The notes under the pieces: model-generated
What the model saw: the letters and a program-made list of their open reading frames with translations, nothing else
Database searches by the model: none
Told to the model about the DNA's origin: nothing
Part shown: positions 3,181 through 58,991 of the stretch, piece by piece
Layout: each line of letters opens with the position of its first letter
Position numbering within the stretch: the first letter of the stretch is position 1
From: Escherichia coli
GTDB taxonomy: Bacteria > Pseudomonadota > Gammaproteobacteria > Enterobacterales > Enterobacteriaceae
Length of the DNA stretch: 64,000 nt
Reading direction: 5' to 3' (one strand)
Assembly (NCBI RefSeq): GCF_002854065.1
Contig: NZ_CP024147.1
Position numbers and translations under genes: made by a program

Positions 3181-3678
3181 ATGGCTTTAAATCTTCAAGA
3201 CAAACAAGCGATTGTTGCTGAAGTCAGCGAAGTAGCCAAAGGCGCGCTGTCTGCAGTAGTTGCGGATTCCCGTGGCGTAACTGTAGATAAAATGACTGAA
3301 CTGCGTAAAGCAGGTCGCGAAGCTGGCGTATACATGCGTGTTGTTCGTAACACCCTGCTGCGCCGTGCTGTTGAAGGTACTCCGTTCGAGTGCCTGAAAG
3401 ACGCGTTTGTTGGTCCGACCCTGATTGCATACTCTATGGAACACCCGGGCGCTGCTGCTCGTCTGTTCAAAGAGTTCGCGAAAGCGAATGCAAAATTTGA
3501 GGTCAAAGCCGCTGCCTTTGAAGGTGAGCTGATCCCGGCGTCTCAGATCGACCGCCTGGCAACTCTGCCGACCTACGAAGAAGCAATTGCACGCCTGATG
3601 GCAACCATGAAAGAAGCTTCGGCTGGCAAACTGGTTCGTACTCTGGCTGCTGTACGCGATGCGAAAGAAGCTGCTTAA
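3181..3678 (+). CDS. rplJ: 50S ribosomal protein L10
   Basis: 165-aa ORF, recognised L10; RBS aggagcaaagctaATG. Confidence 0.97.
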
Positions 3679-3744
3679 TCGCAGTTATCTTTTTAACGCA
3701 TTCGCTTACGTATAAACTTATTCTGATATTCAGGAACAATTTAA

Positions 3745-4110
<366 letters not shown>

Positions 4111-4125
4111 GCCAACCCTTCCGGT

Positions 4126-4185
4126 TGCAGCCTGAGAAATCAGGCTGATGGCTGGTGACTTTTTAGTCACCAGCCTTTTTGCGCT
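4126..4185 (+). terminator. rplL-rpoB intergenic attenuator (partial terminator)
   Basis: Two consecutive hairpins, agcctgagaaatcaggct and ggctggtgactttttagtcaccagcc, the second followed by TTTTTGCG; position matches the known rpoBC attenuator. Confidence 0.7.
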
Positions 4186-4429
4186 GTAAGGCGCCAGTAG
4201 CGTTTCACACTGTTTGACTACTGCTGTGCCTTTCAATGCTTGTTTCTATCGACGACTTAATATACTGCGACAGGACGTCCGTTCTGTGTAAATCGCAATG
4301 AAATGGTTTAAGCGTGATAGCAACAGGCATTGCGGAAAGTGTTCCATTTTCCGGTCAACAAAATAGTGTTGCACAAACTGTCCGCTCAATGGACAGATGG
4401 GTCGACTTGTCAGCGAGCTGAGGAACCCT

Positions 4430-7400
4430 ATGGTTTACTCCTATACCGAGAAAAAACGTATTCGTAAGGATTTTGGTAAACGTCCACAAGTTCTGGATGT
4501 ACCTTATCTCCTTTCTATCCAGCTTGACTCGTTTCAGAAATTTATCGAGCAAGATCCTGAAGGGCAGTATGGTCTGGAAGCTGCTTTCCGTTCCGTATTC
4601 CCGATTCAGAGCTACAGCGGTAATTCCGAGCTGCAATACGTCAGCTACCGCCTTGGCGAACCGGTGTTTGACGTCCAGGAATGTCAAATCCGTGGCGTGA
4701 CCTATTCCGCACCGCTGCGCGTTAAACTGCGTCTGGTGATCTATGAGCGCGAAGCGCCGGAAGGCACCGTAAAAGACATTAAAGAACAAGAAGTCTACAT
4801 GGGCGAAATTCCGCTCATGACAGACAACGGTACCTTTGTTATCAACGGTACTGAGCGTGTTATCGTTTCCCAGCTGCACCGTAGTCCGGGCGTCTTCTTT
4901 GACTCCGACAAAGGTAAAACCCACTCTTCGGGTAAAGTGCTGTATAACGCGCGCATCATCCCTTACCGTGGTTCCTGGCTGGACTTCGAATTCGATCCGA
5001 AGGACAACCTGTTCGTACGTATCGACCGTCGCCGTAAACTGCCTGCGACCATCATTCTGCGTGCCCTGAACTACACCACAGAGCAGATCCTCGACCTGTT
5101 CTTTGAAAAAGTTATCTTTGAAATCCGTGATAACAAGCTGCAGATGGAACTGGTGCCGGAACGCCTGCGTGGTGAAACCGCATCTTTCGACATCGAAGCT
5201 AACGGTAAAGTGTACGTAGAAAAAGGCCGCCGTATCACTGCGCGCCACATTCGCCAGCTGGAAAAAGACGACGTCAAACTGATCGAAGTCCCGGTTGAGT
5301 ACATCGCAGGTAAAGTGGTTGCTAAAGACTATATTGATGAGTCTACCGGCGAGCTGATCTGCGCAGCGAACATGGAGCTGAGCCTGGATCTGCTGGCTAA
5401 GCTGAGCCAGTCTGGTCACAAGCGTATCGAAACGCTGTTCACCAACGACCTGGATCACGGCCCGTATATCTCTGAAACCTTACGTGTCGACCCAACTAAC
5501 GACCGTCTGAGCGCACTGGTAGAAATCTACCGCATGATGCGCCCTGGCGAGCCGCCGACTCGTGAAGCAGCGGAAAGCCTGTTCGAGAACCTGTTCTTCT
5601 CCGAAGACCGTTATGACCTGTCTGCGGTTGGTCGTATGAAGTTCAACCGTTCTCTGCTGCGCGAAGAAATCGAAGGTTCCGGTATCCTGAGCAAAGACGA
5701 CATCATTGATGTTATGAAAAAGCTCATCGATATCCGTAACGGTAAAGGCGAAGTCGATGATATCGACCACCTCGGCAACCGTCGTATCCGTTCCGTTGGC
5801 GAAATGGCGGAAAACCAGTTCCGCGTTGGCCTGGTACGTGTAGAGCGTGCGGTGAAAGAGCGTCTGTCTCTGGGCGATCTGGATACCCTGATGCCTCAGG
5901 ATATGATCAACGCCAAGCCGATTTCCGCAGCAGTGAAAGAGTTCTTCGGCTCCAGCCAGCTGTCTCAGTTTATGGACCAGAACAACCCGCTGTCTGAGAT
6001 TACGCACAAACGTCGTATCTCCGCACTCGGCCCAGGCGGTCTGACCCGTGAACGTGCAGGCTTCGAAGTTCGAGACGTACACCCGACTCACTACGGTCGC
6101 GTATGTCCAATCGAAACCCCTGAAGGTCCGAACATCGGTCTGATCAACTCTCTGTCTGTATACGCGCAGACTAACGAATACGGCTTCCTTGAGACTCCGT
6201 ATCGTAAAGTGACCGACGGTGTTGTAACTGACGAAATTCACTACCTGTCTGCTATCGAAGAAGGCAACTACGTTATCGCCCAGGCGAACTCCAACCTGGA
6301 TGAAGAAGGCCACTTCGTAGAAGACCTGGTAACTTGCCGTAGCAAAGGCGAATCCAGCTTGTTCAGCCGTGACCAGGTTGACTACATGGACGTATCCACC
6401 CAGCAGGTGGTATCCGTCGGTGCGTCCCTGATCCCGTTCCTGGAACACGATGACGCCAACCGTGCATTGATGGGTGCGAACATGCAACGTCAGGCCGTTC
6501 CGACTCTGCGCGCTGATAAGCCGCTGGTTGGTACTGGTATGGAACGTGCTGTTGCCGTTGACTCCGGTGTAACTGCGGTAGCTAAACGTGGTGGTGTCGT
6601 TCAGTACGTGGATGCTTCCCGTATCGTTATCAAAGTTAACGAAGACGAGATGTATCCGGGTGAAGCAGGTATCGACATCTACAACCTGACCAAATACACC
6701 CGTTCTAACCAGAACACCTGTATCAACCAGATGCCGTGTGTGTCTCTGGGTGAACCGGTTGAACGTGGCGACGTGCTGGCAGACGGTCCGTCCACCGACC
6801 TCGGTGAACTGGCGCTTGGTCAGAACATGCGCGTAGCGTTCATGCCGTGGAATGGTTACAACTTCGAAGACTCCATCCTCGTATCCGAGCGTGTTGTTCA
6901 GGAAGACCGTTTCACCACCATCCACATTCAGGAACTGGCGTGTGTGTCCCGTGACACCAAGCTGGGGCCAGAAGAGATCACCGCTGACATCCCGAACGTG
7001 GGTGAAGCTGCGCTCTCCAAACTGGATGAATCCGGTATTGTTTACATTGGTGCGGAAGTAACCGGTGGCGACATTCTGGTTGGTAAGGTAACGCCGAAAG
7101 GTGAAACCCAGCTGACCCCAGAAGAGAAACTGCTGCGTGCGATCTTCGGTGAGAAAGCGTCTGACGTTAAAGACTCTTCTCTGCGCGTACCAAACGGTGT
7201 ATCCGGTACGGTTATCGACGTTCAGGTCTTTACTCGCGATGGCGTAGAAAAAGACAAACGTGCGCTGGAAATCGAAGAAATGCAGCTCAAACAGGCGAAG
7301 AAAGACCTGTCTGAAGAACTGCAGATCCTCGAAGCGGGTCTGTTCAGCCGTATCCGTGCTGTGCTGGTAGCCGGTGGCGTTGAAGCTGAGAAGCTCGACA

Positions 7401-38007: not shown

Positions 38008-38032
38008 AGGCACCTTCGGGTGCCTTTTTTAT
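38008..38032 (+). terminator. rho-independent terminator after metA
   Basis: aggcaccttcgggtgcct hairpin followed by TTTTTTATTT. Confidence 0.8.
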
Positions 38033-41184: not shown

Positions 41185-41328
41185 CTGACTGTAGGCCGGA
41201 TAAGGCATTTACGCCGCATCCGGCAATCGGTGCACGATGCCTGATGCGACGCTTGCGCGTCTTATCATGCCTACAACCGTTGCCGAACGTAGGCTGGATA
41301 AGGCGTTTACGCCGCATCCGGCAATTCT
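41185..41328. repeat. REP/BIME cluster (three REP units) in aceA-aceK intergenic region
   Basis: Imperfect palindromes gtaggccggataaggcatttacgccgcatccggca / gcctgatgcgacgcttgcgcgtcttatcatgcctac / gtaggctggataaggcgtttacgccgcatccggca. Confidence 0.9.
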
Positions 41329-41350: not shown

Positions 41351-45242
<3,892 letters not shown>

Positions 45243-50485: not shown

Positions 50486-52117
50486 GTGTTAACGCTGCTT
50501 CACCTGCTTTCTGCCGTCGCCCTGCTGGTCTGGGGGACTCATATTGTTCGAACCGGCGTAATGCGCGTCTTCGGCGCGCGTTTGCGTACTGTCCTTAGCC
50601 GGAGCGTCGAAAAAAAGCCGCTCGCCTTTTGCGCGGGGATCGGCGTTACCGCACTGGTGCAGAGCAGTAATGCCACCACCATGCTGGTGACCTCGTTTGT
50701 CGCTCAGGATCTGGTAGCCCTCGCACCGGCTCTGGTGATTGTGCTGGGTGCAGATGTCGGGACGGCGCTAATGGCGCGTATTCTCACCTTCGACTTATCC
50801 TGGCTGTCACCGTTACTTATTTTTATCGGCGTGATTTTTTTCCTCGGACGCAAACAGTCACGCGCCGGGCAACTGGGCCGCGTCGGTATTGGTCTTGGGC
50901 TGATTTTGCTGGCGCTGGAGTTGATTGTGCAGGCCGTAACGCCGATCACCCAGGCAAACGGCGTTCAGGTAATCTTTGCCTCGCTGACCGGCGATATTCT
51001 GCTGGATGCGCTGATTGGCGCGATGTTCGCCATTATCAGCTACTCCAGCCTTGCTGCTGTACTGCTGACTGCGACTCTGACCGCCGCAGGCATTATCTCC
51101 TTCCCCGTGGCGCTCTGTCTGGTGATTGGTGCTAACCTCGGTTCCGGCCTGCTGGCGATGCTCAACAACAGTGCCGCCAATGCCGCAGCCCGCCGTGTCG
51201 CGCTGGGTAGTTTGCTGTTTAAGCTGGTGGGTAGCCTGATTATCCTGCCGTTTGTCCATTTGCTGGCAGAGACAATGGGGAAGTTGTCATTGCCAAAAGC
51301 GGAACTGGTGATCTATTTCCACGTCTTCTACAACCTTGTACGTTGCCTGGTCATGCTGCCATTTGTTGACCCGATGGCACGGTTTTGCAAAACGATTATT
51401 CGCGATGAACCGGAACTGGATACCCAGCTACGGCCCAAACATCTGGATGTCAGCGCGCTGGATACGCCCACGCTTGCTCTGGCGAACGCCGCGCGCGAAA
51501 CCCTGCGCATTGGCGACGCCATGGAACAGATGATGGAAGGGCTGAATAAAGTGATGCACGGCGAGCCACGGCAGGAGAAAGAGCTGCGTAAGCTGGCAGA
51601 TGATATCAACGTTCTCTATACCGCCATTAAGCTGTATCTGGCGCGGATGCCAAAAGAAGAGCTGGCGGAGGAAGAGTCGCGCCGCTGGGCGGAGATCATC
51701 GAAATGTCGCTCAACCTTGAACAGGCCTCCGATATCGTCGAGCGCATGGGGAGCGAAATTGCCGATAAATCGCTGGCAGCACGGCGGGCATTTTCGCTTG
51801 ATGGCTTGAAGGAACTGGATGCGCTCTATGAGCAATTGCTCAGTAATTTAAAACTGGCAATGTCGGTTTTCTTCTCTGGTGATGTTACCAGCGCCCGTCG
51901 TTTGCGCCGCAGCAAGCATCGCTTTCGCATTCTTAATCGCCGCTATTCCCACGCCCACGTCGATCGCCTGCATCAGCAAAACGTGCAGAGCATTGAAACC
52001 AGTTCGCTACATTTAGGCTTACTGGGAGATATGCAGCGTCTGAACTCGCTGTTTTGTTCGGTGGCTTACAGTGTGCTGGAACAGCCGGATGAAGATGAAG
52101 GACGGGACGAGTATTAA
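50486..52117 (+). CDS. yjbB: Na/Pi-cotransporter family inner membrane protein YjbB
   Basis: 543-aa ORF, GTG start with RBS aaggag, highly hydrophobic N-terminal 350 aa and soluble C-terminal domain. Confidence 0.88.
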   Translation: MLTLLHLLSAVALLVWGTHIVRTGVMRVFGARLRTVLSRSVEKKPLAFCAGIGVTALVQSSNATTMLVTSFVAQDLVALAPALVIVLGADVGTALMARILTFDLSWLSPLLIFIGVIFFLGRKQSRAGQLGRVGIGLGLILLALELIVQAVTPITQANGVQVIFASLTGDILLDALIGAMFAIISYSSLAAVLLTATLTAAGIISFPVALCLVIGANLGSGLLAMLNNSAANAAARRVALGSLLFKLVGSLIILPFVHLLAETMGKLSLPKAELVIYFHVFYNLVRCLVMLPFVDPMARFCKTIIRDEPELDTQLRPKHLDVSALDTPTLALANAARETLRIGDAMEQMMEGLNKVMHGEPRQEKELRKLADDINVLYTAIKLYLARMPKEELAEEESRRWAEIIEMSLNLEQASDIVERMGSEIADKSLAARRAFSLDGLKELDALYEQLLSNLKLAMSVFFSGDVTSARRLRRSKHRFRILNRRYSHAHVDRLHQQNVQSIETSSLHLGLLGDMQRLNSLFCSVAYSVLEQPDEDEGRDEY

Positions 52118-52128
52118 TACCGTGACCC

Positions 52129-52202
52129 TGTAGGCCTGATAAGACGCGTAAAGCGTCGCATCAGGCACTATGAACAAGATGCCGGATCATGCATCCGGCA
52201 AT
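52129..52202. repeat. REP elements between yjbB and pepE
   Basis: gtaggcctgataagacgcgtaaagcgtcgcatcaggc and gccggatcatgcatccggca palindromic units. Confidence 0.85.
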
Positions 52203-52206
52203 TCAC

Positions 52207-52896
52207 TTAAAAACGGTGACCCGCTTCCAGCGGAACCGCTTCTTCACCGGCCTTAAACACATAGGTGGTGTTCGGGCCACCCAGCGTTGCGTGACCTTTA
52301 CTCACTGTGATCCAGTTACCTTCCGGTAGACCAATAATCGTCAGTTCTGGCGCGACGACCAGCAGTTCGCGAATACGCTGTTCACGGGTTTCACCTTTAT
52401 GGCCTTCCGGCAGCGCGTTGGTGAAGTGCGGGTTGATTTGCAACGGGAACAGATTCAGCGCATCGAAACCTTGCGGATCGACAATCGGCATATCGTTGGT
52501 GGTACGAATGGTTGGGCAAGCAAGGTTAGCGCCTGCGCTCCAGCCAATATACAGTGCGCCACGTTTAACCACGTCAGTAATTGGTGCCAGCAGCCCGCGC
52601 TCGCGGCACTGTTTCAGCAACTGGAAAGTATTACCGCCGCCGACAATCACGATCTCAGCATTTTCAATCGCGGCAACGGGATCGACAACGCTATGAATAC
52701 CGGTGACAGAAACACCCAGCGGAGCGAGAACCGCAGCCGTTTTCTCTGTGTAATCATCCCAGGTCTGCGTTACGCCAGCGAAAGGGATAAACACCGCTGA
52801 GCGGCGACCCTGCAACTGTTCAGCAATTAGCGGCAGTGCATGTTCCAGCCAGGCTTTACCCGGCAGCGTCGAGTTACTCAATAAAAGCAGTTCCAT
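52207..52896 (-). CDS. pepE: dipeptidase E (alpha-aspartyl dipeptidase)
   Basis: 229-aa [31 protein letters not shown], recognised PepE. Confidence 0.93.
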
Positions 52897-53017
52897 TACT
52901 TCTCCGGTTAGTAAGAAATCACGGAAGGAATGCTACCACTGCGAATTTAACCACTTACTGACATGGCTCACGATGTCACGTATTGCACAGGCGCTGAGAC
53001 TGATGACAAACACAGCA

Positions 53018-53120
53018 TTGCCTGATGCGCTACGCTTACCTGGCCTACCAGATAACTGCAATATATTGAATTTTCAAAATTATGTAGGCCGAATAAGGCT
53101 TTATTCCGCATCCGGCATAA
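53018..53120. repeat. REP elements at pepE / sor operon junction
   Basis: gcctgatgcgctacgcttacctggcctac and gtaggccgaataaggctttattccgcatccggca. Confidence 0.8.
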
Positions 53121-53277
53121 ACAATGTGTACTTTGCCACCAATTTGAGCGCCCCTTAAGGCGCTGATGTTTTTTTATCCTTCTCGTGCACATTGGGCCGC
53201 TTCAGCAATCAGCCGCACATCAGGTCGCGAAGTTGCCGCGGCGACCAGCCAGCGACATGCAGAGTTAAGTAGCGCGA

Positions 53278-54507
53278 TTAATCATGGGAAATTGCCTCTG
53301 CATGAGTGAGCAGATATTGCTCCGCCTCACCGGACCAGATCCCCTGATGACGCGCCAGAATCGCCGCCAGTGCTTGATCCTGAATCTGCGTGAGTGACGT
53401 CAGCGGCAGGTATTTCCCGGTATACACCAGCTTTTTGCCGCCGCCGACGGCAGGCAATTCAAGCGTGGTTTCGCCCGCGGCATTCAGCCCAAGAATATGT
53501 GTTACCACTTTTGCGGCCTGCACTTTTTTCTCTTCGATCAGTTTGACCGCCGCGCGCATGTCGTCGGTATTGCCGCCTGACGTGCCCACGTAGTGGGTAA
53601 ATGCATAATGCACATCGTAGAAATTAATTGGCGCGCTGAAATGTTTATCCTGCGGTCCGGCGAAGAAATTCAGGCAACCATCTGTCGCCAGCAAGGAAGA
53701 GGCGAGAGTCACCAGTCCTTCATTAGGCACAAAGACGAAAATATCATCGAAGCCGTGACCGCCACTCAGCGCCATTAGCGTATCAAATGCTGCATCGGTG
53801 GCATTGAGATAATGAATCAGTGTTTGCGATTCTGATGGATAGTGCTTGCGCGCATAACTCAATTTATCGTTGTCGGTATCGGTAATGACGAGCAGCGACG
53901 GGTTAACGGGTCCATGCAGCGCATAATCAATCGCCAACAGTCCCATTGGTCCGGTGCCGCCGAGGATCAGCGTGCGCCCTTGCGGGCGAATCCCCATCGT
54001 GTGGTTATAACTACCTTCCTGAAGATGATAGTTGGCGTTGAACGCGCCAATCACGCAGGAAAGCGGTTCAACCAGCGAGCCTTCAAAATAGGTTTCGCCG
54101 TCGTATGCCAGCAGGCAATCTTGTTCCATGACCTCGTTGGGAATAACCACATGCGTGGCTTCGCCGCCTACCCACGGGAAGGAGTAGCCGGGGCAGTCCG
54201 GGCGGTCGGGGAGTTGCAGGTTGGCCTGAATCACATAACGCTGACCCGGCTGGAATTTGTGCTGCCACTTTTTACCCACGGCCAGAATATCGCCGCAAAA
54301 CTCGTGGCCGATGATGATTGGGTTGGTCGCCACATCGTCGGGTACTTTTTTATGGTTTTCACCCAGGTTGGCCTCTTTCCAGGAAGAGAGGCACAGGCTG
54401 TCAGTGACCACCGTCGCGAGGATTTCTTCCTCCTGCATTTCAGGAAGGTCAAAGGTTTCCAGGCGTAAATCACGTTTACCATAAAGACGCAGAGCTGTTG
54501 TTTTCAT
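53278..54507 (-). CDS. sorE: L-sorbose-1-phosphate reductase (zinc-dependent MDR dehydrogenase)
   Basis: 409-aa product from MKTTALRLYG; GHEFCGDI zinc-ADH motif and Rossmann GGTGPMG; last gene of seven-gene sor cluster. Confidence 0.8.
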   Translation of the reverse strand: MKTTALRLYGKRDLRLETFDLPEMQEEEILATVVTDSLCLSSWKEANLGENHKKVPDDVATNPIIIGHEFCGDILAVGKKWQHKFQPGQRYVIQANLQLPDRPDCPGYSFPWVGGEATHVVIPNEVMEQDCLLAYDGETYFEGSLVEPLSCVIGAFNANYHLQEGSYNHTMGIRPQGRTLILGGTGPMGLLAIDYALHGPVNPSLLVITDTDNDKLSYARKHYPSESQTLIHYLNATDAAFDTLMALSGGHGFDDIFVFVPNEGLVTLASSLLATDGCLNFFAGPQDKHFSAPINFYDVHYAFTHYVGTSGGNTDDMRAAVKLIEEKKVQAAKVVTHILGLNAAGETTLELPAVGGGKKLVYTGKYLPLTSLTQIQDQALAAILARHQGIWSGEAEQYLLTHAEAISHD

Positions 54508-58043: not shown

Positions 58044-58991
58044 TTATTTCAGTAATAGTTCAGCTGTGCTGCTATTCGTTACCAGACAATTAATATATTT
58101 TCCACGCAGTGCACCAATAATTCCGCTGTATTTTTCTTCACTCATGGCAATGCCAATTGAATATCGTGCCTGCTTTAATTTATTCATTTCGATAGAGAGT
58201 GTTTTTTCGCTCATATTCGTTTCAACCATTGCGCCGTGAATATCAAAAAAGCGCGAGCAAATATCGCCAGCAACCTGGCGGGCATTCAGGTCGTCACTCT
58301 CTTCACCACCATAAAACGCATGCCAGTTAGCGCCGTCGCGAATGGCCGGTGAGCCAATTCCCACCAGGGCGACATCCAGATTATCCCAGTAGGCAGAGAT
58401 GGTTTTAAAGTGCTGAGACTGCATGATCCCATTACGAATTAAGGGGTTATCCAGCAGAGCCGGAAAATCCGCGAGATGCGATTCCCCTTTCAGCTTCGCA
58501 GCCGCGCTGTAGGTTAATGTGTTTACGTGATAGCGGCTTTCGAGTTTACCGGACGGTCCGCCAATAATTGGTACGCAGATTAACTGCCGCGATTGCCCCG
58601 CCTGCGGCAAGTTTTCAACCAGTGCGCTCACCGCGCGACCCCAGGAAAAACCGACAATATCGCCAGGCTCCAGCAAGCGATCCAGCAGTTGCGCGCCGTG
58701 TAACCCCATCATCGCCAGTTGAGTCTCTTCATCCTCATCATTTCCCGACACCACCACAACGTCTTTCAGGCCAAACTTTTGCTTCAGTTGCTGCTCCAGC
58801 CAGAGATTTTCGTTGTAGTCATAGTTGATGGCGATGGTGACAATTCCCTGATCGCGGCCTCGTTTAAGCAAGCGGCTGATGGTGGTGCGGTAAATACCCA
58901 GTTCGCGCGCGATTTGCGCCTGCGTCATATCCTGTTCGTAATAGAGTTGGGCAATCTTCACAATCAAACGGATATCGTCACTGTTTTCCAT
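58044..58991 (-). CDS. sorC: SorC-family transcriptional regulator of the sorbose operon
   Basis: 315-aa product from MENSDDIRLIVKIAQLYYEQDMTQAQIARELGIYRTTISRLL (N-terminal HTH) plus sugar-phosphate-binding domain; track ORF N-terminally extended. Confidence 0.8.
   Translation of the reverse strand: MENSDDIRLIVKIAQLYYEQDMTQAQIARELGIYRTTISRLLKRGRDQGIVTIAINYDYNENLWLEQQLKQKFGLKDVVVVSGNDEDEETQLAMMGLHGAQLLDRLLEPGDIVGFSWGRAVSALVENLPQAGQSRQLICVPIIGGPSGKLESRYHVNTLTYSAAAKLKGESHLADFPALLDNPLIRNGIMQSQHFKTISAYWDNLDVALVGIGSPAIRDGANWHAFYGGEESDDLNARQVAGDICSRFFDIHGAMVETNMSEKTLSIEMNKLKQARYSIGIAMSEEKYSGIIGALRGKYINCLVTNSSTAELLLK

What the first reader, a model, noticed from the sequence alone, without database searches (positions are those of the whole stretch)
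53147..53177. Orphan plus-strand terminator-like hairpin with no upstream plus-strand gene
agcgcc-ccttaa-ggcgct followed by gatgTTTTTTTa is a textbook intrinsic terminator on the plus strand, yet the nearest upstream plus-strand gene (yjbB) ends more than 1 kb away with its own REP cluster, and both flanking genes (pepE, sorE) are on the minus strand. It may be the 3-prime end of a small plus-strand transcript from the REP-rich island border, or a relic of a gene lost on acquisition of the sor island.
Basis: seen in the sequence. Interest (0 to 1): 0.2.

Follow-up and report, generated by a model that had tools for sequence, protein, structure and literature searches.

The report
Sorbose operon's end hairpin, misread strand
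The "orphan" plus-strand terminator is really the conserved stem-loop that ends the minus-strand sorbose operon, left looking stranded because the operon's last gene was almost entirely deleted in this E. coli lineage; it is an ordinary feature with a tidy evolutionary explanation.

Summary
The hairpin AGCGCC-CCTTAA-GGCGCT (53147-53164) followed by GATG and T7 (53169-53175) is real and rare: two such sites in 64 kb against 0.17 expected. It is not an orphan, though.

In E. whittamii, E. albertii, Citrobacter, Klebsiella, Raoultella, Pseudocitrobacter and 177 of 5,426 complete E. coli genomes, the homologous hairpin lies 5-20 nt after the stop codon of an eighth sor-cluster gene. That gene is an SdhL/HI0607-type shikimate 5-dehydrogenase whose ATG overlaps the sorE stop, on the sorE (minus) strand.

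The window keeps only 112 nt of this 813-nt gene (53174-53285), because of a 701-nt internal deletion shared by about 2,700 E. coli genomes. The plus-strand T-run is the complement of that gene's TAA stop plus an A-rich spacer. The run is uninterrupted only in deletion-bearing strains (AAGAAA became AAAAAAA).

"Textbook" overstates the plus-strand case. The stem has 6 bp, a 4-nt non-U spacer precedes the T-run, no plus-strand promoter or conserved ORF lies upstream, and a competing long stem across the adjacent BIME sequesters the 5' arm.

Most likely role: 3' stem-loop of the sor transcript, acting with the BIME to insulate pepE. This is inferred, not measured. Interest is low.

The parts
53147..53164 (-). 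Conserved GC-rich stem-loop. On the minus-strand RNA it reads AGCGCCU-UAAG-GGGCGCU (7 bp including one U-G pair, -10.8 kcal/mol). On the plus strand it has 6 bp and a 6-nt loop (-9.7 kcal/mol). It is the ancestral 3' hairpin of the sor cluster.
   Evidence: Homologous hairpins lie 5-20 nt after the sdhL stop codon in 5 genera. Across 24 sequences, 90% of cells are paired and 1 of 500 shuffles reaches that value. It is invariant in the 8 E. coli sequences that have it.
53165..53176 (-). On the minus strand this is the TAA stop codon of the sdhL remnant (53176..53174), then AAAAA, then CATC. On the plus strand it reads GATG followed by T7 and then A, which is the apparent U-tract.
   Evidence: Escherichia sequences with the intact gene read TAAGAAACATC or TAGAAACATC (6 of 6). 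Deletion-bearing strains read TAAAAAAACATC (4) or TAAAAAATATC (3).
53174..53228 (-). 3' stub of the sdhL pseudogene: its last 55 nt, including the stop codon.
   Evidence: Best-split alignment to the 813-nt E. whittamii gene, 50 of 55 identical; alignment A1.
53229..53285 (-). 5' stub of the sdhL pseudogene: its first 57 nt. The ATG (53285..53283) overlaps the sorE stop codon as ATGATTAA. A premature TAA at codon 7 (53267..53265) is polymorphic among strains. The deletion junction is at 53229|53228 with 1 nt of microhomology, and 701 nt are missing.
   Evidence: the polymorphism at 53267 is. The full-length orthologue matches NF009202/PRK12550 at 462 bits, Pfam Shikimate_dh_N and PDB 1NPY (HI0607) at E = 6e-113.
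53278..54507 (-). sorE (L-sorbose 1-phosphate reductase), the last intact gene of the sor operon in this strain. Its stop codon lies 113 nt before the hairpin on the minus strand.
53020..53117 (.). BIME-like REP pair. A Y-type REP sits at 53020-53048 (2 mismatches to consensus), an AT-rich palindromic core at about 53049-53083, and a degenerate inverted REP at 53084-53117.
   Evidence: inverted repeats I2, I3, I5, I8. Weak Rfam hits to the REP/BIME-derived families ES036 and naRNA4.
52990..53010 (.). Left arm of the 21-nt inverted repeat that brackets the BIME (GGCGCTGAGACTGATGACAAA). It pairs with 53132-53152, which contains the hairpin's plus-strand 5' arm.
   Evidence: I1, 76% complementary; direct repeat D3 AGGCGCTGA. 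Both arms are homologous to the single post-hairpin segment of Pseudocitrobacter (A3). In the plus-strand minimum-energy fold this pairing replaces the local hairpin.
53132..53152 (.). Right arm of the same inverted repeat (TTTGCCACCAATTTGAGCGCC). It overlaps the hairpin's plus-strand 5' arm.
52897..52977 (-). Core pepE upstream region, shared with sor-negative (K-12-type) genomes. The left border of the variable sor segment is at about 52978-52986.

Best explanation
The hairpin is the ancestral 3'-terminal stem-loop of the minus-strand sorbose (sor) gene cluster.

Shown:
- In relatives it sits 5-20 nt after the stop codon of the cluster's last gene, an SdhL/HI0607-type shikimate 5-dehydrogenase whose start codon overlaps the sorE stop.
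- In this strain, and in about half of all complete E. coli genomes, a single 701-nt internal deletion reduced that gene to a 112-nt remnant.
- The hairpin therefore now lies 113 nt after sorE with no annotated gene next to it.
- The plus-strand T-run is the complement of the dead gene's TAA stop plus an A-rich spacer. It became an uninterrupted run only in the deletion-bearing lineage.

Inferred:
- On the sor mRNA, the hairpin forms as soon as it is transcribed.
- Together with the BIME/REP pair immediately downstream, it defines and protects the sor transcript's 3' end and limits read-through into the co-directional pepE.
- It would do this as a weak or factor-assisted terminator and exonuclease barrier rather than a canonical U-tract terminator.
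- The plus-strand terminator look is largely a by-product.
For: - The homologous hairpin lies about 815 nt after sorE in 10 loci from Escherichia, Citrobacter and Pseudocitrobacter.
- A 270-aa same-strand ORF lies between sorE and the hairpin, with an ATGATTAA overlap.
- The window's stubs match that gene's ends at 52/57 and 50/55 positions, with 701 nt missing.
- The gene family is identified.
- The intact gene is annotated in 177 of 5,426 E. coli genomes. The deleted spacer occurs in 2,681 of 5,426.
- A hairpin follows the sdhL stop codon in 24 sequences from 5 genera, 90% paired.
- In several relatives the sorE strand carries a real U-tract after the stem: TCTATTTTA, TTTATTTTA, TTTTCGTTT, TATTTGTCTTT. 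Citrobacter wls619 scores +8.
- The T-run is ancestrally interrupted in 6 of 6 Escherichia sequences with the intact gene.
- The hairpin has 0 of 18 variable sites among 7 divergent E. coli, against 0.12-0.19 per site in the adjacent pseudogene stubs.
- The plus-strand fold sequesters the 5' arm. On the minus strand the local hairpin is made about 140 nt before its competitor.
- REP elements between tandem genes have been reported to act as partial Rho-dependent terminators and mRNA stabilisers (bioRxiv 10.64898/2026.03.23.713779).
Against: - In the window the minus-strand tail after the stem is CAAAUUGGUG, with 3 U in 10, and the score is -54. By sequence it is a poor intrinsic terminator on that strand too.
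- In Escherichia generally, the plus-strand tail is the more U-rich one.
- Stem conservation within E. coli is not statistically decisive (P = 0.18 against the spacer-wide rate).
- Wobble pairs do not discriminate the strands: 7 favour the sorE strand and 5 favour the opposite strand.
- CE10-type strains keep an intact sdhL but have lost the hairpin's 3' arm and the BIME, so the hairpin is dispensable at least there.
- No transcript 3'-end data could be examined.
Confidence: 0.72

Rival explanations
1. It is a working plus-strand intrinsic terminator. It would stop antisense or divergent transcription that arises in the pepE promoter/BIME region before it runs antisense into the sor operon, or it would form the 3' end of a small BIME-derived RNA.
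For: - The GC-rich stem plus U7 is rare by chance.
- The plus-strand tail is U-rich throughout Escherichia (GAUGUUUCUU).
- The run was lengthened to T6-T7 in the deletion lineage.
- The hairpin is invariant in E. coli.
Against: - A 4-nt non-U spacer separates stem and U-run, the stem has only 6 bp, and the score is -41.
- No promoter better than 8 of 12 matches lies upstream, and those matches sit in the palindromic BIME core.
- There is no Rfam family.
- The plus-strand ORF 52973-53158 is frameshifted by indels between strains.
- The upstream inverted-repeat arm at 52990-53010 is transcribed first and is predicted to capture the 5' arm.
- The T-run is fully explained as a stop codon plus spacer.
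Confidence: 0.1
2. It is a relic of a bidirectional terminator between convergent genes. In an ancestor, a ccdA-ccdB toxin-antitoxin pair on the window's plus strand ended at this hairpin, facing sdhL. Escherichia lost ccdAB, which a BIME replaced, and later lost sdhL. The hairpin would then have outlived the genes on both sides.
For: - CcdA/CcdB genes (Pfam) are convergent with sdhL in Citrobacter, Klebsiella, P. vendiensis and others. Decayed fragments occur in several further loci.
- In L008 the ccdB stop codon (6069-6071) overlaps the base of the hairpin, 33 nt from the sdhL stop.
- In C. amalonaticus the opposite-strand tail is UUUUUCUACC, scoring +17.
Against: - No ccdA or ccdB trace was found in the window or any Escherichia locus, even at E < 1.
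- ccdAB presence is patchy even within genera, so it may be a repeated insertion rather than ancestral.
- In ccdAB-bearing loci the plus-sense tails are only modestly U-rich.
Confidence: 0.2
3. It is a functionless leftover. The hairpin has no present role on either strand, and it persists only because too little time has passed or because it hitch-hikes with the BIME palindrome.
For: - Both strands score poorly as terminators.
- CE10-type strains do without it.
- In E. albertii the stem is broken on the sorE strand (C-A and A-C) and the unit is caught up in a tandem BIME amplification.
- The within-E. coli conservation test is not significant.
Against: - The stem is maintained across five genera despite loop and flank turnover.
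- There are zero changes in the stem, while the neighbouring 101 nt of pseudogene stubs carry 16 variable sites in the same 7 strains.
Confidence: 0.2

Closest known systems
Operon-terminal stem-loops and intrinsic terminators of enterobacterial catabolic operons, including U-tract-poor 3' hairpins that act as exonuclease barriers after Rho-dependent termination
   Same: It is a GC-rich hairpin a few nucleotides after the last stop codon of an operon. Its position is conserved across genera, and some orthologues carry a canonical U-tract.
   Different: In this window the gene it followed is deleted and the sense-strand U-tract is absent. The better U-run lies on the antisense strand and derives from the stop codon.
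REP/BIME elements in 3' UTRs between tandem genes (for example REP325 in yjdMN), which act both as partial Rho-dependent terminators and as mRNA stabilisers
   Same: A REP pair lies directly downstream of the hairpin between the co-directional sorE and pepE. The likely joint role is to insulate pepE and stabilise the upstream mRNA.
   Different: The hairpin is not itself a REP. It does not match the REP consensus and is unique in the window. It is older than the BIME at this site and is only partly drawn into the BIME's flanking inverted repeat.
Bidirectional terminators between convergent genes
   Same: An A-run lies on one side and a GC stem sits in the middle. In Citrobacter and Klebsiella the same hairpin lies between the convergent stop codons of sdhL and ccdB.
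   Different: The window has no convergent gene, and only one strand has a U-run.
SdhL (HI0607, PDB 1NPY), the PRK12550 class of shikimate 5-dehydrogenase-like proteins
   Same: The deleted gene's full-length orthologues match NF009202 at 462 bits and 1NPY at E = 6e-113.
   Different: Only 112 of 813 nt remain here. The remnant is out of frame and carries a premature stop codon. It is not annotated in any of the E. coli records inspected.

Membership tests
   6 bp with 5 G-C pairs, -9.7 kcal/mol. This is at the short, weak end of the range.
   GAUG separates the stem from U7. The weighted T-score is 1.29, against 4.99 for the reference terminator at 38009. The composite score is -41 (formula recalled from memory).
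   There is no plus-strand gene for 1,030 nt and no convincing promoter. The overlapping ORF is not conserved in frame.
   The local fold forms in a 61-nt context. In the 201-nt context the 5' arm pairs with 52990-52995 instead. This is a thermodynamic prediction only.
   EHEC Term-seq exists (PMC7547250), but the data are not held here.
Operon-terminal hairpin or terminator of the sor cluster, minus strand | Located just downstream of the last gene's stop codon on the gene's strand, and conserved in orthologous loci | tested here: met
   It lies 5-20 nt after the sdhL stop codon in 24 sequences from 5 genera. In the window it lies 9 nt after the remnant's TAA.
Operon-terminal hairpin or terminator of the sor cluster, minus strand | Stem maintained by selection (pairing preserved, covariation) | tested here: inconclusive
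   90% of cells are paired and 1 of 500 shuffles reaches that value. However, the core pairs are nearly invariant, and only the two outer pairs show changes on both sides.
Operon-terminal hairpin or terminator of the sor cluster, minus strand | U-tract after the stem on the sense strand | tested here: not met
   The window tail is CAAAUUGGUG. The feature is met in some orthologues (L011, L046, L014, L020). This supports 'works like a 3' hairpin', not 'is a canonical intrinsic terminator'.
REP / BIME | Sequence match to the REP consensus and multi-copy occurrence | tested here: not met
   The hairpin 18-mer is unique in the window at up to 3 mismatches. REP consensus patterns hit 53020-53048 and 41191-41322 but not the hairpin.
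Bidirectional terminator between convergent genes | Convergent genes on both sides, with an A-tract on the 5' side and a U-tract on the 3' side | tested here: not met
   Both neighbours are on the minus strand, and only the plus strand has a U-run. The convergent arrangement does exist in Citrobacter and Klebsiella with ccdB.
SdhL/PRK12550 shikimate dehydrogenase (pseudogene remnant) | Collinear homology of the remnant to both ends of a full-length family member in the orthologous position | tested here: met
   The stubs match at 52/57 and 50/55 positions, with the same ATGATTAA overlap with sorE and the same stop-codon context. The full-length gene matches NF009202 at 462 bits, above the 306-bit cutoff.

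The most novel reading that the evidence does not exclude
The internal deletion of sdhL, together with the AAGAAA-to-AAAAAAA change, turned a dead gene's stop codon and its old 3' hairpin into a newly functional plus-strand terminator. That terminator would now shield the sor operon from antisense transcription coming out of the pepE/BIME region, or would define the 3' end of a BIME-derived small RNA with a hairpin-plus-U7 tail of the kind that binds Hfq.
Probability: 0.07. Interest if true: 0.35.

Novelty: new member of a known kind. Interest (0 to 1): 0.12.

Why it matters
The main value is for annotation and for interpreting similar findings. A terminator-shaped motif on the "wrong" strand can be the shadow of a neighbouring gene's stop codon plus that gene's own 3' hairpin. 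Cross-species synteny resolves such cases quickly.

The work also turns up an unannotated pseudogene remnant carried by about half of complete E. coli genomes. It shows that the enterobacterial sor cluster ancestrally has an eighth gene, an SdhL-type dehydrogenase, which most E. coli have lost. That could bear on sorbose and ketohexose metabolism in strains that keep the gene.

None of this challenges current understanding.

Tried and rejected
- Rfam scan of 51900-53500 at E up to 10: only sub-threshold REP-derived hits (naRNA4, ES036), nothing over the hairpin.
- Plus-strand small protein: ORF 52973-53158 ends in the hairpin loop, but it is REP-derived and is frameshifted by 1-nt indels at 52987 and 53089 in other strains.
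- Orphaned rluF promoter feeding the hairpin: rejected. The rluF -10 region lies in the right-hand conserved flank next to rluF.
- K-12 sor deletion ending at the hairpin (the ATTTGAGC resemblance): local alignment score 16 against a shuffle mean of 22, so it is chance.
- Traces of ccdAB in Escherichia: none by tblastn at E < 1.
- Using G-U wobble asymmetry to decide the functional strand: 7 against 5, inconclusive.
- Within-E. coli conservation as proof of selection: P = 0.18, not decisive.
- MAFFT misplaced the 5' stub across the 701-nt gap. I resolved this with an explicit best-split comparison.
- Literature: the first keyword search returned noise. The sor operon papers do not mention the spacer, sdhL or any terminator. 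The EHEC Term-seq paper has no supplementary tables held here. The Sakai intergenic small-gene supplements do not mention sorE or pepE.

Full report
**Observation.** The window matches E. coli strain S51 at 100% over this spacer. The local layout is:
- yjbB, 50486-52117 (+)
- a REP pair, 52133-52200
- pepE, 52207-52896 (-)
- a 381-nt spacer
- sorE, 53278-54507 (-), followed by the rest of the sor operon up to a pseudogenised sorC, then rluF (+)

The described motif is present exactly: AGCGCC-CCTTAA-GGCGCT at 53147-53164, then GATG, then T7 at 53169-53175. The built-in loose terminator scan is uninformative here, with 12 sites found against 6.3 +/- 2.4 expected in 6 kb. With strict criteria, only two sites exist in the 64 kb against 0.17 expected, and the 18-mer is unique in the window.

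"Textbook" is too strong, however. The stem has 6 bp (-9.7 kcal/mol). Four non-U-rich bases separate it from the T-run. A d'Aubenton-Carafa-type score (formula recalled from memory) gives -41, against +38 for the real terminator at 38009.

**Where it sits.** About half of complete E. coli genomes (2,681 of 5,426) carry the whole spacer. K-12-type genomes share only its first 81-90 nt, next to pepE. Aligning the K-12 empty site places the left edge of the variable sor segment at about 52978-52986. The hairpin is therefore about 170 nt inside that segment. The rluF -10 region lies in the right-hand conserved flank, so no rluF promoter has been stranded upstream of the hairpin.

**What it is.** I retrieved sorE loci from 80 species. 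In E. whittamii, E. albertii, two further Escherichia lineages, Citrobacter and Pseudocitrobacter, the homologous hairpin lies about 815 nt after sorE, not 113 nt.
- The extra DNA is a 270-codon gene on the sorE strand whose ATG overlaps the sorE stop as ATGATTAA.
- It is an SdhL/HI0607-type shikimate 5-dehydrogenase: NF009202 at 462 bits, Pfam Shikimate_dh_N, and PDB 1NPY at E = 6e-113.
- The window's minus strand at 53285..53174 consists of that gene's first 57 nt (52 identical to E. whittamii) joined to its last 55 nt (50 identical).
- 701 nt are missing. The junction is at 53229|53228, and there is a premature TAA at codon 7.
- The remnant's stop codon is 53176..53174. The plus-strand "GATGTTTTTTTA" is therefore the reverse complement of TAA plus AAAAA plus CATC.
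- All six Escherichia sequences with the intact gene read TAAGAAACATC or TAGAAACATC. The seven deletion-bearing E. coli sequences read TAAAAAAACATC or TAAAAAATATC. The uninterrupted T-run is thus derived and specific to the deletion lineage.
- The intact gene survives, annotated as "shikimate 5-dehydrogenase", in 177 of 5,426 E. coli genomes.
- No record inspected annotates the remnant.

**Conservation of the hairpin.** Across Escherichia, Pseudocitrobacter, Citrobacter, Klebsiella and Raoultella, plus one Enterobacter sequence, a (A)GAGCGCC-loop-GGCGCTC(T) hairpin follows the sdhL stop codon by 5-20 nt.
- On a 24-sequence alignment, 90% of cells pair (1 of 500 shuffles reaches that value; slid registers give 23-57%). 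The core pairs hardly vary, so true covariation is thin.
- In several species the sorE strand has a proper U-tract after the stem: C. portucalensis, Citrobacter wls619 and MGH106, and Raoultella BIGb0138. Citrobacter wls619 scores +8. This fits an operon terminator on that strand.
- The order sorE, sdhL, pepE is conserved across these genera. The sor cluster therefore looks ancestral at this site, with K-12 having lost it, rather than being a recent island.

**Complications.**
- In the window the sense-strand tail is CAAAUUGGUG, scoring -54. In Escherichia generally the antisense tail is the more U-rich one.
- Wobble pairs do not discriminate the strands: 7 favour the sorE strand and 5 the opposite strand.
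- Within seven divergent deletion-type E. coli, the stem has 0 of 18 variable sites, while the pseudogene stubs have 16 in 101. Against the spacer-wide rate this gives only P = 0.18.
- CE10-type strains keep sdhL but have lost the hairpin's 3' arm and the BIME.
- In many Citrobacter, Klebsiella and P. vendiensis loci, a ccdA-ccdB pair (Pfam) is convergent with sdhL. The ccdB stop codon overlaps the base of the hairpin, so there the hairpin sits between two stop codons like a bidirectional terminator. No ccdAB trace exists in Escherichia.

**Against a plus-strand function here.**
- There is no promoter better than 8 of 12 matches, and those matches lie in the palindromic BIME core.
- There is no Rfam family.
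- The plus-strand ORF ending in the loop is frameshifted between strains.
- The BIME (REP at 53020-53048, AT-rich core, degenerate REP to 53117) is bracketed by a 21-nt inverted repeat, 52990-53010 with 53132-53152. Its right arm contains the hairpin's 5' arm.
- Both arms are homologous to the single post-hairpin segment of Pseudocitrobacter, which implies an inverted duplication.
- In the plus-strand minimum-energy fold of 52980-53180, that long stem replaces the local hairpin (-53 kcal/mol, z = -2.7).
- On the minus strand the local hairpin is synthesised about 140 nt before its competitor.
- This kinetic argument is an inference.

**Mechanism proposed.** Shown: the hairpin is the sor cluster's ancestral 3' stem-loop, orphaned by deletion of sdhL, and the T-run is stop codon plus spacer. 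Inferred: on the sor mRNA it acts with the downstream BIME as a 3'-end barrier and partial, probably factor-assisted, terminator that insulates pepE. This is in line with reported dual terminator and stabiliser roles of REPs between tandem genes (bioRxiv 10.64898/2026.03.23.713779).

**Rivals.** They are not mutually exclusive:
- a genuine plus-strand terminator (0.10)
- a relic of a bidirectional terminator shared with a lost ccdAB pair (0.20)
- a functionless leftover (0.20)

**Verdict.** This is a real motif that has been explained. It is an ordinary operon-end hairpin beside an unannotated pseudogene remnant, and the plus-strand terminator reading is largely an artefact of looking at the complement of a stop codon. 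Interest is low (0.12), and I class it as a new member of a known kind.

Noticed in passing
window 58044-58991 (-): In the matching strain S51, sorC (the sor operon regulator) is annotated as a pseudogene with an internal stop codon. Regulation of the operon in this strain may therefore be altered.
   Followed up: no
L008 6069-6679 (-); also L007, L009, L015, L017, L026; fragments in L005, L010, L013, L022, L032, L076: A chromosomal ccdA-ccdB toxin-antitoxin pair lies between sdhL and pepE, convergent with the sor cluster, in many Citrobacter, Klebsiella and Pseudocitrobacter loci. It shows several stages of decay. The ccdB stop codon overlaps the base of the hairpin.
   Followed up: partly
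L042 (E. albertii), about 3577-4327: The unit made of the post-hairpin segment plus the BIME is tandemly triplicated between sdhL and pepE. The first hairpin copy has C-A and A-C mismatches on the sorE strand. The tblastn match to sorE in this locus was weaker and longer than expected, which hints at a frameshift.
   Followed up: no
L084 (E. coli CE10) 2013-2136: Most E. coli genomes with an intact sdhL have a second, independent rearrangement that removes the hairpin's 3' arm and the whole BIME. This leaves only 122 nt between sdhL and pepE, and the junction sequence GTTTGCCACG looks like the inverted copy of the window's post-hairpin segment.
   Followed up: partly
window 52897-53277 (records NZ_CP015995.1 and NZ_CP006830.1): The locus-tag numbering skips one value between pepE and sorE in S51 (RS23315) and in APEC O18 (RS16905). 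This suggests an earlier annotation once placed a feature in this spacer and that it was later withdrawn.
   Followed up: no
L004 5223-6035 (sdhL); PDB 7COK: Among the distant solved relatives of the sor-linked SdhL is a 5-ketofructose reductase from the shikimate dehydrogenase family (63 bits). This raises the untested idea that the sor-cluster SdhL acts on a ketohexose related to sorbose rather than on shikimate.
   Followed up: no
window 53265-53267 (-): The premature TAA at codon 7 of the sdhL remnant is polymorphic. One of the seven strains compared (L090) keeps the ancestral CAA. The stop codon therefore arose after the deletion, or the site has recombined.
   Followed up: partly
window 38009-38030 (+): A genuinely canonical intrinsic terminator, GGCACC-TTCG-GGTGCC followed directly by TTTTTTATTT. 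I used it as the internal positive control and did not examine its gene context.
   Followed up: no
window 52133-52200: A REP pair between the convergent yjbB and pepE matches Rfam naRNA4 (CssrE) on both strands, at 46 and 29 bits, below the gathering score of 59.5.
   Followed up: no
window about 43897-45242 (-) (L001 1-1346): A type III secretion effector gene, espL4, is annotated just upstream of iclR in the matching strain. This is an accessory gene next to the core iclR-metH region.
   Followed up: no
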